Of a stretch of 5,923 bases of DNA, positions 974-5,923 are shown piece by piece (positions within the stretch are counted from its first letter, which is position 1; every line of letters begins with the position of its first letter). The notes under the pieces are model-generated. The model was not told the origin of the DNA, searched no databases, and saw nothing but the letters and a program-made list of their open reading frames with translations. The stretch is from positions 1 to 5,923 of the IMG/VR virus record IMGVR_UViG_2671180460_000007; one strand, 5' to 3'. The position numbers and the translations under genes are program-made. This DNA comes from a virus (taxonomy: Duplodnaviria > Heunggongvirae > Uroviricota > Caudoviricetes).

Positions 974-2077
974 TTAGAACTGGTATACCATACCTACAGC
1001 AACGATATCGTCAGTGTTTACACCAAGAGCTTTAGTAAAGTCATTTTTGTCAAGCAGGTTGATTTTGTAATCAACGAAGGTAGACATATTTTTGTTGAAA
1101 TAATAAGTTGCGCCAACATCAACATATTTGACTAAATCCTGGTCACCAAAAATGCCAAGATCTTTACCTTTTGATTGCAGATAAGCAACAGACGGACGCA
1201 GACCGAAATCGAACTGATATTGTGCAACAGCTTCGAAGTTTTGTGCTTTATTAGCCACAAAGTAATCTGCGAATTTAGTCATATTCTGGGTTTCTGAATA
1301 GGTTGTTGCCAGATAAACGTTGTTTGCGTCGTATTTCAGACCTGCAGCCCAGACTTCTGCATTTTCGCCGGAAGCAAATACTCCTGGGAGAAGTTTACCC
1401 AATTTGACTTGAGTGTCGGTACGATCAGATTTCGCATACGTTGCACCAATGCCGAAACCTTCGTATTCATAGGTCGCAGAGAAACCAAAACCATCGCCAT
1501 TGCCTTTGGTGTAGTTATCTAAGCTACTACGATCATGATTATTCTTACCCTGGTACTGTGCAGCAAAATTCAGACCATCAACCAGACCAAAGAAGTCGTT
1601 GTTACGATAAGTTGCAACACCAGTGGTACGACCAGTCATGAATACATCTGTTTGGGTCCAGGTATCTCCACCGAATTCTGGCAGGACGTCAGTCCATGCA
1701 CCGATATCGTATGCTACACCGTAGTTACGACCGTAATCGACGGAGCCGTAGTCACCGAATTTAAGCCCTGCAAATGCAAGACGGGTTTTATCTTTGGCTG
1801 CTCCCTGTTCTTCAGTACGGTTTCCTTTGAATTCATATTCCCACTGACCGAAACCAGTCAGTTGATCGTTGATCTGAGTTTCGCCTTTGAAACCCAGACG
1901 AGCATAAGTTGTGTCGCCATCATTTGCATCGTTAGAGGAGAAGTAGTGCTTAGCATTAACTTTTCCGTACAGATCCAACTTGTTGCTGTCTTTATTATAA
2001 ATCTCTGCTGCCTGAGCAGACATCGCCATCAGTACTGATGCAGCCACAGCAGAAATTGCCACCGTTAATTTTTTCAT
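974..2077 (-). CDS. nmpC: General diffusion porin of the OmpC/OmpF family, prophage-borne NmpC / Lc / OmpD type
   Basis: Signal peptide [23 protein letters not shown] followed by [24 protein letters not shown]..., Gly/Tyr/Asp-rich beta-barrel composition and C-terminal ...VGMVYQF aromatic terminus, all hallmarks of enterobacterial 16-strand porins. The track start at 2080 is GTG; the adjacent ATG at 2077 with AGGG about 6 nt upstream is the more likely start. Stop TAA at 974-976 (minus). Confidence 0.9.
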
Positions 2078-2080
2078 CAC

Positions 2081-2932: not shown

Positions 2933-3997
2933 ATGGCTAATACTGTAAAAATATCCAGTTGTGAGTTAATCAACGCTGATTGCCTGGAATTTATCCGGAC
3001 CTTACCGGAAAACTCTGTCGATCTGATAGTCACAGACCCGCCATACTTTAAAGTGAAGCCCGAGGGCTGGGATAACCAGTGGAAGGGGGACGATGATTAC
3101 CTGAAATGGCTGGCTCAGTGTCTGGCGCAGTTCTGGCGGGTACTGAAACCTGCCGGAAGTCTCTACCTGTTCTGTGGTCATCGCCTGGCATCTGATATCG
3201 AAATCATGATGCGTGAACGCTTTAATGTGCTGAACCACATTATCTGGGCGAAGCCGTCCGGACGCTGGAATGGGTGCAACAAGGAAAGCCTGCGGGCGTA
3301 TTTTCCGGCAACAGAACGCATTCTGTTTGCTGAACATTATCAGGGGCCATACCAGCCAAAAAATGACGGCTATGCAACAAAGGGGCGCGAGCTTAAACAG
3401 CATGTCATGGCCCCGCTGATTTCTTACTTTCGTGATGCGCGCGAATCACTGGGGATAACGTCAAAACAGATAGCAGAAGCCACCGGAAAGAAAAACATGG
3501 CTTCGCACTGGTTTGGTACCAGTCAGTGGCAGTTACCGAATGAGGCCGATTACAGTAAACTGCAGGCGCTGTTTGCACGTGTGGCGGCAGAAAAACACCA
3601 GCGCGGTGAACTGGAGCAGCCACACCACCAGCTGGTCAGCACATACAGCGAACTGAACCGGCAATATGTCAGCCTGCTGGAGGAATACAAATCACTGCGG
3701 CGTTATTTTTCCGTATCGGCTGTCGTTCCTTATACGGATGTCTGGACGCACAAGCCCGTGCAGTATTATCCGGGCAAACATCCCTGTGAAAAACCGGCGG
3801 ATATGTTGCGTCAGATAATTACTGCCAGCAGCCGTCCAGGCGATTTGGTCGCAGATTTTTTTATGGGGTCAGGTTCCACGATAAAAGCGGCACTGTTGCT
3901 GGGACGCAGGGCGATTGGCGTGGAACTGGAAAAAGAACGTTTTGAACAGACCGTCGGTGAAATAATGGAGCAGGCAGAGAAACCAGGTAGTGCATAA
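2933..3997 (+). CDS. DNA methyltransferase, beta-class amino-methyltransferase (N6-adenine type most likely; N4-cytosine not excluded); orphan within this window
   Basis: 354-aa ORF with catalytic motif IV DPPY near the N-terminus (DLIVTDPPYF) and AdoMet-binding motif I FxGxG near the C-terminus (DFFMGSGST). This IV-before-I order is the beta-class permutation; DPPY rather than SPPY favours N6-adenine. No endonuclease-like ORF is adjacent. Confidence 0.88.
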   Translation: MANTVKISSCELINADCLEFIRTLPENSVDLIVTDPPYFKVKPEGWDNQWKGDDDYLKWLAQCLAQFWRVLKPAGSLYLFCGHRLASDIEIMMRERFNVLNHIIWAKPSGRWNGCNKESLRAYFPATERILFAEHYQGPYQPKNDGYATKGRELKQHVMAPLISYFRDARESLGITSKQIAEATGKKNMASHWFGTSQWQLPNEADYSKLQALFARVAAEKHQRGELEQPHHQLVSTYSELNRQYVSLLEEYKSLRRYFSVSAVVPYTDVWTHKPVQYYPGKHPCEKPADMLRQIITASSRPGDLVADFFMGSGSTIKAALLLGRRAIGVELEKERFEQTVGEIMEQAEKPGSA

Positions 3998-4614: not shown

Positions 4615-4690
<76 letters not shown>

Positions 4691-4693
4691 TAT

Positions 4694-4768
<75 letters not shown>

Positions 4769-5033
4769 CAGTAACTAAGGCGAGATTGTTTCAGGCACTG
4801 ATGTAATATAATATATGTGGGGTGTTTTTTTCTGACTCCTTACCACGCCCTGTTCTGTAATGAGTGATATCAGTACAGTTCCAGTGCCACTTTTTTACAA
4901 CACCGGAATAATGCATTATTAGCCAGGATTTTGTTTTTTTCTTCTGCAAATGTATTATCCCGATGTTGTAAACATCGACAAAAACAAAACTGTGATTAGT
5001 CACATACTAAGTCAAGCCCGGAAATACATCCTT

Positions 5034-5059
5034 AACCGCCGCACCAGGCGGTTTTTTTT
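5034..5059 (+). terminator. Strong rho-independent terminator closing the tRNA transcription unit
   Basis: aaccgcc (5034-5040), loop gcacca, ggcggtt (5047-5053): perfect 7-bp stem followed by a run of 8 T (5052-5059). Confidence 0.7.
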
Positions 5060-5233
5060 ATTCCGTTTTTTATGGACCGTTCAGTCGGACCTTTTTCATA
5101 TCCGCGTCACGCCCGGCGCACATCAAAAACCACAGAGCCTTTCAGTGGCGAGCTTACGGGATGGTCAGTGTGACTTTCTCTGTGGGCTGGTCACCCCCGG
5201 GCGGAGGCTCACCCACTAAAAGGAAAAGTAACG

Positions 5234-5659
5234 ATGTTTGGTATTTTCAAAAAGAAAACCCGCAAGGCCATTACTGAAGTGAAGAAGATGGAGAACCGCG
5301 ACGCAGTGGAGGCGACCGTCTGGGGCGCGTATTCCATAGCATTCGCCGACGGCACCTGTGATGCGAAAGAAATCGCTGTGCTGGAGAAAACCATTGCAGC
5401 ACTTCCTGCTTTTGCGCCGTTCTCGGGTGAGATTGCACAAATGAGTGCAAATATCCGCGCCCGTTATGAAGCGTCACCTCGTAGTGCGAATGCTCAGGCT
5501 TTGCGTGAACTGGCTGATGTGGCAGGAACCACCGAAGCGGTTGATGTGCTGTGCCTGTGTCTTGATATTGCTGACCAGGATGGCATTGGTCCGGATGAAG
5601 AAGCACAGCTCAAGAAAATTGCTCAGGCGCTGCAGTTGCCGCTGGAGCAGTACCTGTGA
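5234..5659 (+). CDS. TerB-fold (tellurite-resistance TerB-like) small soluble protein, 141 aa
   Basis: Good SD (AAGGAAAAG) 8 nt before ATG. Two copies of the TerB-type signature: AFADGTCDAKEIAVLEKTIAAL and LDIADQDGIGPDEEAQLKKIAQAL (acidic ADG/DQDG motif followed by E and an amphipathic helix). No predicted transmembrane segment. Confidence 0.75.
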   Translation: MFGIFKKKTRKAITEVKKMENRDAVEATVWGAYSIAFADGTCDAKEIAVLEKTIAALPAFAPFSGEIAQMSANIRARYEASPRSANAQALRELADVAGTTEAVDVLCLCLDIADQDGIGPDEEAQLKKIAQALQLPLEQYL

Positions 5660-5805
5660 AAAGTGCGCGCCTTGTGCTGGCTGCCATCCTGCTGTTTCTG
5701 GTGGTGGTGGATTTCACCGGACGGCTGATGTCGGTGCTGGCAGATGGTGTGCTGGTGGCGATGGCGCTGGTCGTGCTCCGGCCTTTACTGCGTAAATCTG
5801 AATAG
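5656..5805 (+). CDS. Small hydrophobic ORF (49 aa, two predicted membrane-spanning segments), translationally coupled to the TerB-like gene; not in the supplied ORF track
   Basis: GTG at 5656 overlaps the TerB-like stop (cTGTGAaa; GTG 5656-5658, TGA 5657-5659); GGAG at 5644-5647 lies 8 nt upstream. Translation VKSARLVLAAILLFLVVVDFTGRLMSVLADGVLVAMALVVLRPLLRKSE*: basic N-terminus, two hydrophobic stretches, basic C-terminus. Stop TAG at 5803-5805. In this frame the nearest upstream stop is 5596-5598 and GTG 5656 is the first plausible start. Confidence 0.4.
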   Translation: MKSARLVLAAILLFLVVVDFTGRLMSVLADGVLVAMALVVLRPLLRKSE

Positions 5806-5855
5806 CACCACACAAAAGGTATCTGCGGGTGCCTTTGACGGGGTGTTTTTTTACG

Positions 5856-5876
5856 GGCCGACAGTGGCCTTTTTTT
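5856..5876 (+). terminator. Weak terminator-like hairpin plus T-run after the small hydrophobic ORF
   Basis: ggcc (5856-5859), loop gacagt, ggcc (5866-5869), followed by tttttttattt. The stem is only 4-5 bp, so this would be leaky at best. Confidence 0.25.
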
Positions 5877-5894: not shown

Positions 5895-5923
5895 ATGTCT
5901 GAACCCTTATCCGGTTCCGGCAC
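5895..5923 (+). CDS. 5' end of a downstream gene (partial, runs off the right edge); product unknown
   Basis: ATG at 5895 preceded by a strong SD (AGGAG at 5883-5887, 7-nt spacing); reads MSEPLSGSG... to the window end. Not recognisable as a lambda- or 21-type holin or endolysin N-terminus. Confidence 0.4.

What the first reader, a model, noticed from the sequence alone, without database searches (positions are those of the whole stretch)
5234..5805. TerB-like protein translationally coupled to an unannotated 49-aa two-helix membrane peptide in the Q-downstream cargo slot
Seen in sequence: a 141-aa protein with two TerB-type acidic repeats ends in a TGA that overlaps a GTG opening a 49-codon ORF with two hydrophobic segments and basic termini. 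The pair is bracketed by a strong terminator upstream (5034-5059) and a weak one downstream (5856-5876), so it behaves as a self-contained two-gene module. The small ORF is below the length cutoff of the ORF track and would be missed by routine annotation. Inference: a soluble sensor or chaperone-like TerB protein paired with a tiny membrane protein, sitting where lambdoid phages keep lysogenic-conversion, exclusion and defence cargo, is a plausible abortive-infection, superinfection-exclusion or membrane-stress module (the small protein could be a holin-like or membrane-depolarising effector, or an anchor for the TerB protein). I cannot place this pair in any described system, but that is not evidence of novelty.
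Basis: partly seen in the sequence, partly recalled or inferred. Interest (0 to 1): 0.7.

Follow-up and report, generated by a model that had tools for sequence, protein, structure and literature searches.

The report
Known phage tciA–tciB gene pair
This is a lambdoid-prophage copy of the phage P1 tciA–tciB pair, named in 2004 and never tested for function: a TerB-fold protein whose stop codon overlaps the start of a ~50-residue membrane hairpin peptide (Pfam DUF3927). The sequence observation is real, but the pair is neither unannotated nor new.

Summary
A 141-aa TerB-family protein (5234-5659) ends in a TGA that overlaps the GTG of a 49-codon ORF (5656-5805) with two hydrophobic segments. 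A terminator lies upstream and two hairpins lie downstream.

The pair is not unplaced. It is the phage P1 tciA/tciB pair. TciA is 86.5% identical to the window protein. The peptide is Pfam DUF3927 and PHROG 'TciB-like'. NCBI's pipeline annotates the same trio, TerB / DUF3927 / holin, in many complete E. coli genomes.

The stop/start overlap is kept in 80 of 80 close relatives and 13 of 13 species-level relatives. The pair recurs in lambdoid, P1/P7, P2-like, virulent N4-like and jumbo phages. In each case it lies co-directionally inside genes of the lytic programme, with no promoter of its own detected. That argues against an abortive-infection or lysogenic-conversion role.

No function has been shown experimentally. 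P1 tciA/B/C are non-essential in a CRISPRi screen.

My best guess is a membrane-associated TerB-plus-partner complex made during lytic growth, analogous to TerB–TerC. Pseudomonas phages couple their TerB gene to a different small membrane protein, which fits that idea.

Verdict: already known, function open, low to moderate interest.

The parts
5034..5061 (+). Intrinsic terminator (stem AACCGCC/GGCGGTT plus T8) upstream of the module
   Evidence: Found by the scan. Only 5 of 80 close relatives have a terminator-like match to a pattern modelled on this hairpin within 600 nt upstream. The six relatives inspected have a different terminator hairpin (GGCTCGC..GCGGGCC plus T-run) at the 5' edge of the leader.
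5086..5233 (+). Conserved ~150-nt leader of tciA. It includes the hairpin GCGTC-ACGCCC-GGCGC and the ribosome-binding site AAGGA (5220-5224).
   Evidence: More than 90% conserved columns across 54 distinct upstream sequences. 77-94% nt identity in lambdoid relatives, including JLK-2012 (84%), whose TciA is only 43% aa identical. No promoter-like site. Only weak covariation for a fold.
5234..5659 (+). tciA: 141-aa TerB-family protein with a polybasic N-terminus (MFGIFKKKTRK) and two DGx(4-5)E acidic motifs
   Evidence: Pfam TerB and PHROG_632 at 2e-65. 86.5% identical to P1 TciA. A profile of relatives hits solved Klebsiella TerB 2JXU at E = 3e-18 over the full length. AF2 model has pLDDT 88 and six helices. 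pN/pS is 0.075.
5644..5659 (+). Coupling junction: internal GGAG (5644-5647), then the GTGA stop/start overlap (5656-5659)
   Evidence: GTG start with a 4-nt overlap in 80 of 80 IMG/VR relatives. Overlap of 4 nt (GTG/TTG) or 1 nt (ATG) in 13 of 13 species-level relatives. P1 and P7 use TGATG and TAATG.
5656..5805 (+). tciB: 49-aa DUF3927 peptide. Basic N-terminus, hydrophobic helix, conserved D-F-T-G-R...S-x-x-x-D-G, second hydrophobic helix, (W/R)-P-L-L-(R/K)-K tail.
   Evidence: Pfam DUF3927 at 4e-14 and PHROG_1470 'TciB-like' at 1e-22. 174 homologous clusters, named 'DUF3927 family protein', with the same start. pN/pS is 0.46, against 0.72 and 1.27 in the other two frames. Hydropathy.
5815..5876 (+). 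Two hairpins with T-runs (5815-5836 followed by T-run 5846-5852; 5855-5870 plus T7) between tciB and the holin gene
   Evidence: One search finds the second hairpin. Compensatory GGCA/TGCC versus GGTA/TACC changes in relatives support the first.
5896..5923 (+). Start of the first holin gene (runs off the window end). This is context, marking the right boundary of the module.
   Evidence: PGAP 'putative holin', followed by 'phage holin family protein' and a GH108 endolysin, in E. coli EC11.

Best explanation
Identity (shown). This is the lambdoid-prophage version of the phage accessory pair tciA–tciB, first named in P1.

Gene products (shown). tciA encodes a soluble, all-helical TerB-fold protein. 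It has two DGx(4-5)E acidic motifs and a conserved hydrophobic and polybasic N-terminus. tciB encodes a ~50-residue hairpin membrane peptide of the DUF3927 family.

Translation (inferred from sequence). tciB is translated by coupling to tciA, through the GTGA overlap and the internal GGAG.

Timing (inferred from context). The pair has no detectable promoter of its own and is fenced by terminators. It would therefore be made when Q-modified RNA polymerase reads through from the late promoter, together with the holin genes next to it. This matches the P1 pair, which lies in the C1-repressed ban operon, and the pairs in the early operons of P2-like phages and in virulent N4-like phages.

Mode of action (inferred). 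TciB sits in the inner membrane with both basic ends in the cytoplasm. It serves as the integral-membrane partner of TciA, much as TerC is for TerB and as the transmembrane helix is for the TerB-like domain of DjlA. The complex acts on the inner membrane of the infected cell.

Role (guess). It guards membrane or ion status against damage, for example from pore-forming colicins, superinfecting phages or premature loss of membrane potential. Such damage would mistime holin-dependent lysis. It is a dispensable fitness factor, not a core phage function. The biochemical activity is unknown.

The stated confidence of 0.55 is for the explanation as a whole. By step it is about 0.97 for identity, about 0.55 for a membrane complex made during lytic growth, and about 0.3 for the protective role.
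For: Identity:
- TciA is 86.5% identical to P1 TciA.

TerB fold:
- A profile of relatives hits solved TerB 2JXU at E = 3e-18.
- The AF2 model has pLDDT 88.
- The top Foldseek hit is the TerB-like protein 2h5n, probability 0.99.

Coupling and reality of tciB:
- The overlap is kept in 80 of 80 and 13 of 13 relatives.

Obligate association:
- 10 of 13 small proteins immediately downstream of diverse phage TerB genes are DUF3927.
- Every DUF3927 locus I inspected has a TerB gene directly upstream.
- DUF3927 is a small family of 88 clusters among 1.84 billion representatives, essentially always a stand-alone protein of 40-70 aa.

A membrane partner as a general principle:
- Pseudomonas phages AF and Zuri and a P. 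juntendi prophage couple TerB to an unrelated single-TM protein, phrog_27356; the overlap is seen in AF and the P. juntendi prophage, while Zuri has a 4-nt gap.
- A Vibrio phage has TerC next to TerB.
- Literature: TerB binds TerC and the inner membrane. DjlA is a TM helix plus a TerB-like domain.
- TciA residues 1-20 carry net charge +5 with a conserved MFGxFKKK motif.

Lytic timing:
- No promoter is detected, and terminators flank the pair.
- P1 and P7 tciAB lie downstream of the C1 operators of Pban.
- The P2-like pairs lie in the early region between the cox/CP76 and repB/gpA genes.
- The pair is present in virulent N4-like and jumbo phages.
- TciA peptides were detected in P1 virion preparations.

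Dispensable:
- CRISPRi scored P1 tciA/B/C as non-essential.
- About half of one P1-like subgroup has lost the operon.
Against: - No experiment on TciA or TciB function exists in the searched literature.
- Complex formation is not shown. AF2 on a naturally frameshift-fused TciA-TciB (P0178) gave pTM 0.66, against 0.82 for TciA alone. That is no confident docking, and the test was weak.
- Recombination breakpoints fall inside tciB. P1 and P7 share TciB from residue 16 onward, yet their TciA alleles both differ widely from the window protein (86.5% and 35% identity to it). TM2 is mosaic among close relatives. Any contact therefore cannot be allele-specific.
- TciB is under only moderate constraint (pN/pS 0.46).
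- The alternative Pseudomonas partner probably has its soluble domain in the periplasm, which fits a simple 'anchor' idea poorly.
- A weak or non-canonical promoter in the conserved leader cannot be excluded by a consensus scan.
Confidence: 0.55

Rival explanations
1. Superinfection exclusion. TciB, with TciA as cofactor, modifies the inner membrane of an already infected or induced cell so that DNA of later-arriving phages cannot enter. This would work in the manner of small early membrane proteins such as T4 Imm (comparison from my own knowledge).
For: The ter operon, whose TerB is the homologue, confers phage inhibition and colicin resistance according to literature quoted. The pair is expressed in lytic programmes, including those of virulent phages, where exclusion is useful. 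It is variable, dispensable cargo.
Against: No homology to any known exclusion protein was found. P1 already has sim for exclusion, according to the gene list quoted. No phenotype has been reported.
Confidence: 0.15
2. One reading: a prophage-encoded defence or abortive-infection module. TciA senses infection or membrane damage, and TciB is a depolarising, holin-like effector that kills the cell.
For: TerB domains occur in the defence systems Bunzi and Shango, which have been proposed to survey the membrane. The pair sits in the moron slot between Q and the lysis genes. TciB is a two-segment hydrophobic peptide with basic termini.
Against: No PADLOC model matches either protein at E <= 1. No own promoter is detected, and an upstream terminator shields the pair in a lysogen. 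The pair is present in strictly lytic N4-like and jumbo phages and in early lytic operons. P1 knock-down has no effect. The 50-aa peptide has no holin family match.
Confidence: 0.08
3. Lysis-timing regulator. TciB acts as an antiholin-like membrane peptide, with TciA as its cytoplasmic cofactor, and tunes the adjacent holins.
For: In lambdoid relatives the pair lies immediately upstream of two holin genes and in the same late transcription unit. The inferred topology, with both ends in the cytoplasm and two helices, is shared with class II holins and antiholins (my own knowledge).
Against: In P1, P7, P2-like, N4-like and jumbo phages the pair is far from the lysis genes. It pairs with unrelated lysis cassettes. 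No holin or antiholin family match was found.
Confidence: 0.1
4. The small ORF is a chance reading frame or an annotation artefact, and only the TerB gene is real.
For: It is short, uses a GTG start and is GC-rich. Its pN/pS of 0.46 is much higher than that of tciA. A few relatives carry truncated or recombined versions.
Against: Pfam DUF3927 at E = 4e-14. A conserved motif and position are seen from Escherichia to Pseudomonas, Erwinia and Aeromonas phages. The overlap is kept in 93 of 93 relatives. pN/pS is lower than in the alternative frames.
Confidence: 0.02

Closest known systems
Phage P1 tciA–tciB(–tciC), and the P7 equivalents terB–upf69.4–upf69.6
   Same: TciA is 86.5% identical at the protein level and 80% at the nucleotide level. 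TciB belongs to the same Pfam/PHROG family and has a stop/start overlap. tRNA-Thr lies upstream in both. Function has been assigned only 'by homology'.
   Different: TciB is only ~45% identical and has 49 rather than 54 residues. It uses a GTGA (4-nt) overlap instead of TGATG (1-nt). There is no tciC. The pair sits in the Q-to-holin late region of a lambdoid prophage rather than in the C1-controlled ban operon.
TerB of the terZABCDEF tellurite / colicin / phage-inhibition operon (solved structure 2JXU), which works with the membrane protein TerC
   Same: Full-length homology (profile E = 3e-18). Both have the two DGx5E motifs, an all-helical fold and a size of ~150 aa. TerB is membrane-associated and binds an integral membrane partner.
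   Different: No TerC, TerD, TerZ, TerA or TerE gene is nearby. The partner here is a 49-aa hairpin peptide. Single-sequence search does not detect 2JXU. A tellurite phenotype has not been tested.
DjlA (inner-membrane DnaK co-chaperone: TM helix + TerB-like domain + J domain)
   Same: A TerB-like domain is held at the cytoplasmic face of the inner membrane by a short membrane element. There is a weak NCBIfam match to the DjlA TerB region (E = 0.03).
   Different: There is no J domain. The membrane element is a separate, co-translated peptide rather than a fused helix.
Bunzi and Shango anti-phage systems (TerB-domain proteins proposed to survey the membrane)
   Same: A TerB-type domain combined with membrane association, in a phage–host conflict setting.
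   Different: No PADLOC model matches. There are no helicase, ATPase or other effector genes. The pair is encoded by phages, including virulent ones, inside lytic operons.
Pseudomonas phage TerB + phrog_27356 pairs (phages AF and Zuri, P. juntendi prophage)
   Same: A TerB-like gene of the same subfamily (30-38% identity) is directly followed by, and in AF and the P. juntendi prophage overlapped by (GTGA-type), a small membrane protein.
   Different: The partner is not homologous to TciB. It has one N-terminal TM helix plus a ~45-aa Cys-containing domain (CxWYGYQTERxT...GWxPR).

Membership tests
TerB family (Pfam PF05099) | Profile match above the curated cut-off | tested here: met
   29.4 bits against a cut-off of 24.4, E = 1.1e-6, two stretches. 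PHROG_632 'tellurite resistance' at 2.3e-65.
TerB family (Pfam PF05099) | Full-length homology to a solved TerB and an all-helical fold | tested here: met
   Profile of 12 relatives against 2JXU gives E = 3e-18, aligning positions 13-138 to 19-145. AF2 gives six helices, pLDDT 88. Foldseek top hit is 2h5n, probability 0.99 but TM only 0.51.
TerB family (Pfam PF05099) | Two acidic D-G-x(4-5)-E motifs | tested here: met
   D39/G40/E46 and D116/G117/E122 are invariant or nearly invariant across 50 sequences.
ter operon (terZABCDEF) system | TerC, TerD/TerE and TerZ/TerA genes adjacent | tested here: not met
   No such genes are in the window or in EC11 flanks. The neighbours are tRNAs, a methyltransferase and holins.
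ter operon (terZABCDEF) system | Tellurite, colicin or phage-inhibition phenotype | not testable with these tools
   No experiment on TciA/B was found.
P1 TciA/TciB/TciC module | TciA orthologue followed by an overlapping DUF3927 gene | tested here: met
   86.5% identity to P1 TciA. DUF3927 at E = 4e-14 with the GTGA overlap.
P1 TciA/TciB/TciC module | Third small gene, tciC (35 aa, phrog_23152) | tested here: not met
   tciB is followed by 90 nt of hairpins and then the holin gene. No such ORF is listed.
DUF3927 (Pfam PF13064) / PHROG_1470 'TciB-like' | Profile match above the cut-off; ~50 aa; stand-alone | tested here: met
   52.7 bits against a cut-off of 25. PHROG_1470 at 1.3e-22. The family is almost entirely stand-alone proteins of 40-70 aa.
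Holins / antiholins | Match to a holin family; membership of the lysis cassette across relatives | tested here: not met
   No holin family hit in Pfam or PHROGs. The pair lies away from lysis genes in P1, P2-like and N4-like phages.
Known anti-phage defence systems (PADLOC-DB 2.0, including Bunzi, Shango, TerY-P) | Match to any component model | tested here: not met
   Zero families at E <= 1 for either protein.

The most novel reading that the evidence does not exclude
TciA–TciB, together with the analogous TerB + phrog_27356 pairs, is a widespread minimal phage 'membrane guard'. It would be a TerB-fold sensor or buffer docked on a tiny membrane partner and made during lytic growth. It would keep the infected cell's membrane potential from collapsing under pore-forming colicins, superinfecting phages or host abortive-infection pore-formers. 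It would thus act as a counter-defence or lysis-clock insurance. That would also give the first concrete function for the TerB fold.
Probability: 0.2. Interest if true: 0.6.

Novelty: already known. Interest (0 to 1): 0.25.

Why it matters
As a finding it adds little. The genes are named, belong to Pfam and PHROG families, and are annotated in many genomes.

What remains of value is that the function of TciA/TciB, and of the TerB fold in general, is still unknown about 20 years after the genes were named. The comparative picture assembled here narrows the hypotheses:
- TciA and TciB are obligately coupled.
- The pair sits inside lytic transcription units of temperate and virulent phages alike.
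- An unrelated small membrane partner replaces TciB in Pseudomonas phages.

Together these point to a membrane-located role during lytic growth, and away from a lysogen-expressed defence or conversion gene. That is cheaply testable in P1 or in an inducible lambdoid lysogen.

Tried and rejected
- Single-sequence search of the PDB found nothing. A profile was needed.
- NCBIfam has no specific model for either protein.
- PADLOC gave no hit.
- An alignment of very diverse TciA sequences was too divergent for the locus scan. The narrower alignment returned only 14 genome loci.
- A 196-aa TerB–DUF3927 'fusion' (P0178) looked like a Rosetta-stone clue. It is a single P1-like Logan contig with a 1-nt indel at the junction, so probably an error. 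The longer DUF3927 hits in the 1.84-billion-protein search also look like frameshifts or chimeras.
- I tried to co-fold TciA and TciB using that fusion. MAFFT misplaced the TciB rows, so only TciA rows were used. The result (pTM 0.66; TciB predicted as two helices broken at the conserved D-G) says nothing reliable about docking.
- Rfam found only the two tRNAs. The miRNA-model hits at 4891-4975 are spurious matches to a long hairpin.
- The conserved leader has no convincing fold: z-score -1.3 and a covariation term of -0.48.
- I could not read Lobocka 2004 or Anantharaman 2012, as they are not held. Statements about them come from GenBank notes and from papers that cite them.
Full report
**1. 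Observation**

The window is the late regulatory region of a lambdoid prophage. In order it holds:
- an antiterminator Q gene (410-793, PF06530, E = 1e-53);
- a porin gene on the opposite strand (974-2080);
- a small winged-helix-like ORF;
- an N6/N4 DNA methyltransferase (2933-3997);
- tRNA-Thr and tRNA-Gly (4615-4768);
- the two ORFs of the finding;
- the first codons of a holin gene at 5896.

The 141-codon ORF (5234-5659) and the 49-codon GTG ORF (5656-5805) overlap in GTGA. A GGAG lies 8 nt upstream of the GTG. The scan tool finds terminator-like sites at 5034-5053 plus T8 and at 5855-5870 plus T7. A further hairpin at 5815-5836 shows compensatory changes in relatives. The sequence part of the finding is therefore correct.

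**2. Identity of the two proteins**

The large protein:
- It passes Pfam TerB above the curated cut-off and matches PHROG_632 over its full length at 2e-65.
- Alone it finds nothing in the PDB.
- A profile of 12 diverse relatives aligns end to end with the solved Klebsiella TerB (2JXU) at E = 3e-18.
- An AlphaFold model built on 50 sequences has pLDDT 88, pTM 0.82 and six helices. Its best Foldseek hit is the TerB-like protein 2h5n (probability 0.99, TM 0.51).

The small protein:
- It matches Pfam DUF3927 (E = 4e-14) and PHROG_1470, which is described as 'TciB-like inhibition of cell division or resistance to colicin'.

**3. It is the P1 tciA/tciB pair, and it is routinely annotated**

- A translated search of phage genomes gives P1 TciA at 86.5% identity.
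- The P1 record lists tciA, tciB (54 aa, overlapping tciA by 1 nt) and tciC (35 aa). [quoted passage not shown]
- RefSeq's pipeline labels the same three genes 'tellurite resistance TerB family protein | DUF3927 family protein | putative holin' in all 20 top-listed complete E. coli genomes. In all, 539 of 5426 genomes match this 924-bp stretch.
- The protein database holds 174 clusters of the peptide with the same MKSARL start, mostly 50 aa. The window copy lacks one Val codon from a GTG run.
- 789 plasmid records carry the TciA gene. Of these, 771 are non-mobilizable, and the listed examples are mostly 90-120 kb, which fits P1-like and SSU5-like phage-plasmids.

So 'unannotated' and 'cannot be placed in any described system' are both wrong. 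Some older phage records do omit the small ORF.

**4. The small gene is real and the coupling is conserved**

- In 80 IMG/VR loci with 93-99% identical TciA, the GTG start and the 4-nt overlap are present in all 80. The peptide is 50 aa in 64 of them.
- In 13 species-level relatives (Citrobacter, Enterobacter, Erwinia, Pantoea, Rosenbergiella, Buttiauxella and others), a DUF3927-type ORF overlaps the TerB stop by 4 nt (GTG/TTG) or 1 nt (ATG) in all 13.
- pN/pS is 0.075 for tciA. For tciB it is 0.46, against 0.72 and 1.27 for the two other frames.
- The conserved pattern is: basic N-terminus; hydrophobic helix; (V)D(F/S)xx(R/K)xxSxxxDG; hydrophobic helix; WP(L/I/V)xKK.
- From the positive-inside rule (my inference), both ends face the cytoplasm.
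- AlphaFold on a frameshift-fused relative predicts two helices broken at the conserved D-G.

**5. Distribution and context**

The pair occurs in:
- lambdoid phages between Q and the lysis genes (window; JLK-2012; Evi; Klebsiella phage 5 LV-2017; E. coli EC11);
- P1 and P7, downstream of the C1 operators of the ban promoter;
- P2-like prophages of Pectobacterium and Aeromonas, between the cox/CP76 and repB/gpA genes;
- the virulent N4-like Salmonella phage SP076;
- Erwinia jumbo phages, Pseudomonas phage phiK7B1 and Pantoea phage LIET2.

Ten of 13 small proteins found directly after diverse phage TerB genes pass the DUF3927 model. Conversely, every DUF3927 gene I inspected follows a TerB gene. 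A search of 1.84 billion representatives finds only 88 DUF3927 clusters. Nearly all are stand-alone proteins of 40-70 aa, and the few longer ones look like frameshifts or chimeras.

Where DUF3927 is missing, another membrane protein takes its place:
- Pseudomonas phages AF and Zuri and a P. juntendi prophage follow TerB directly with an unrelated single-TM protein, phrog_27356. In AF and the P. juntendi prophage the start overlaps the TerB stop, and in AF the ORF is unannotated.
- A Vibrio phage has TerC next to TerB.

**6. Expression logic**

- No sigma-70-like site is found between the upstream terminator and the start codon.
- The inspected lambdoid relatives have a terminator hairpin at the 5' edge of a conserved ~150-nt leader. 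The window instead has a terminator about 30 nt further upstream.
- Two hairpins with T-runs separate tciB from the holin gene.

In a lambdoid late operon such terminators are read through only by Q-modified polymerase (established lambda biology). I therefore infer that the pair is made with the late genes after induction. This matches its placement in repressor-controlled or early lytic operons elsewhere, and its presence in phages that cannot lysogenise. PADLOC also gives no hit for either protein.

**7. What is known experimentally**

Nothing direct.
- P1 tciA, tciB and tciC score as non-essential in a genome-wide CRISPRi screen (PMC10695390).
- TciA peptides were seen in P1 virion preparations and dismissed as non-structural (PMC9024508).
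- About half of one P1-like subgroup has lost the operon (PMC9603915).
- The genome announcement of the N4-like phage Pollock states that the role of TciA in a lytic phage is unknown (PMC4319500).
- For the wider family, papers report that TerB forms a complex with the integral membrane protein TerC and is attached to the inner membrane (PMC12054061, PMC11003894, 10.1101/2022.05.11.491447).
- DjlA carries a TerB-like domain behind a membrane helix (PMC11451591).
- The defence systems Bunzi and Shango contain TerB domains.

**8. Most likely mechanism**

Shown:
- homology of both proteins;
- translational-coupling architecture;
- obligate synteny;
- the hydrophobic hairpin;
- the polybasic and hydrophobic N-terminus of TciA (net +5 in residues 1-20, and -10 in the rest).

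Inferred: TciB is the inner-membrane partner of TciA, and the complex is produced during lytic growth and acts at the membrane.

Guess: it protects membrane or ion status, and thereby the holin clock, from colicins, superinfection or other damage. This echoes the colicin-resistance and phage-inhibition phenotypes of ter operons.

Against a tight complex:
- Recombination breakpoints lie inside tciB. P1 and P7 share TciB from residue 16 onward, although the two TciA alleles are 86.5% and 35% identical to the window protein.
- The second helix is mosaic among close relatives.
- The fusion model gave no confident docking.

My confidences:
- identity, about 0.97;
- membrane complex during lytic growth, about 0.55;
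- protective role, about 0.3.

**9. Novelty and score**

The pair is already known, named and annotated, although its function is not. The window copy is a close allele: 98% identical proteins exist in the databases. A specialist would not be surprised by it.

The residual interest lies in the comparative regularities, namely coupling, lytic context and partner replacement. These make the old question 'what does a phage TerB do?' more testable. Interest 0.25.

Noticed in passing
window 5086-5233: The ~150-nt leader upstream of tciA is 77-94% nt identical in lambdoid relatives. That includes JLK-2012 (84%), whose TciA protein is only 43% identical, so the non-coding leader is better conserved than the gene behind it. 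No promoter-like site and only weak covariation were found. It could be a regulatory 5'UTR or a conserved recombination linker. Its first ~60 nt also occur in PPompW-type prophages with other downstream content.
   Followed up: partly
window 4769-5085: A ~317-nt insertion relative to JLK-2012 lies between tRNA-Gly and the leader. It holds a long imperfect hairpin at 4894-4972 (-24.7 kcal/mol, z = -4.9; spurious miRNA-model hits on both strands) and the terminator at 5034-5053. It may be a small mobile or sRNA-like element.
   Followed up: partly
window 4615-4768; L001, L003, L004, L006: tRNA genes sit just upstream of tciAB in several otherwise unrelated phages. The window has Thr-Gly, JLK-2012 has Asn-Thr-Gly, P1 and P7 have Asn-Thr (and Ile downstream), and an Erwinia jumbo phage has Trp-Cys. 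The window tRNA pair is 90.5% identical to JLK-2012's, and the tRNA-Thr is ~75% identical to P1's. Whether this is linkage by co-transfer or a functional link was not resolved.
   Followed up: partly
L008 1932-2153; L012 1943-2146; L109 3441-3644: Pseudomonas phages AF and Zuri and a P. juntendi prophage follow their TerB-like gene directly with a different small protein, overlapping its stop in AF and the P. juntendi prophage. It is phrog_27356, with one N-terminal TM helix and the motif CxWYGYQTERxT..FVGCMV..GWxPR. The ORF is unannotated in phage AF (NC_019923).
   Followed up: partly
L001 3426-3590 vs L004 2435-2599: P1 and P7 carry very different TciA alleles (86.5% and 35% identical to the window protein). 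Their TciB peptides are identical from residue 16 onward except for one substitution. A recombination breakpoint therefore lies inside tciB.
   Followed up: no
L002 4001-4591 (protein P0178): A 196-aa TerB–DUF3927 single-chain 'fusion' occurs in one P1-like Logan contig. It is caused by a 1-nt indel at the stop/start overlap, so it is probably a sequencing error rather than a natural fusion.
   Followed up: yes
hits H21/H100 (PP818812.1); L093, L098, L106: Near-identical copies of this E. coli-type module appear in records labelled Actinobacillus phage vB_Apl-pPE4, a 'Bacillota' MAG (2.7-kb contig), Kocuria sabuli (700-bp contig) and Pseudomonas lundensis. Contamination or mislabelling is likely.
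   Followed up: no
window 974-2080 (-) and 2933-3997 (+): An OmpC/NmpC-like porin gene lies antisense to the late transcript, and an orphan N6/N4 DNA methyltransferase (PADLOC MTase_II, 9e-154) also lies in the Q-to-holin interval. This is classic lambdoid moron cargo. P1 likewise has a methyltransferase (dmt) upstream of its tRNA–tciAB block.
   Followed up: no
window 5700-5712: The window tciB has 49 codons where most relatives have 50. It lacks one Val codon from a GTG/GTT run in the first hydrophobic segment, which looks like a slippage-type indel that keeps the frame.
   Followed up: yes
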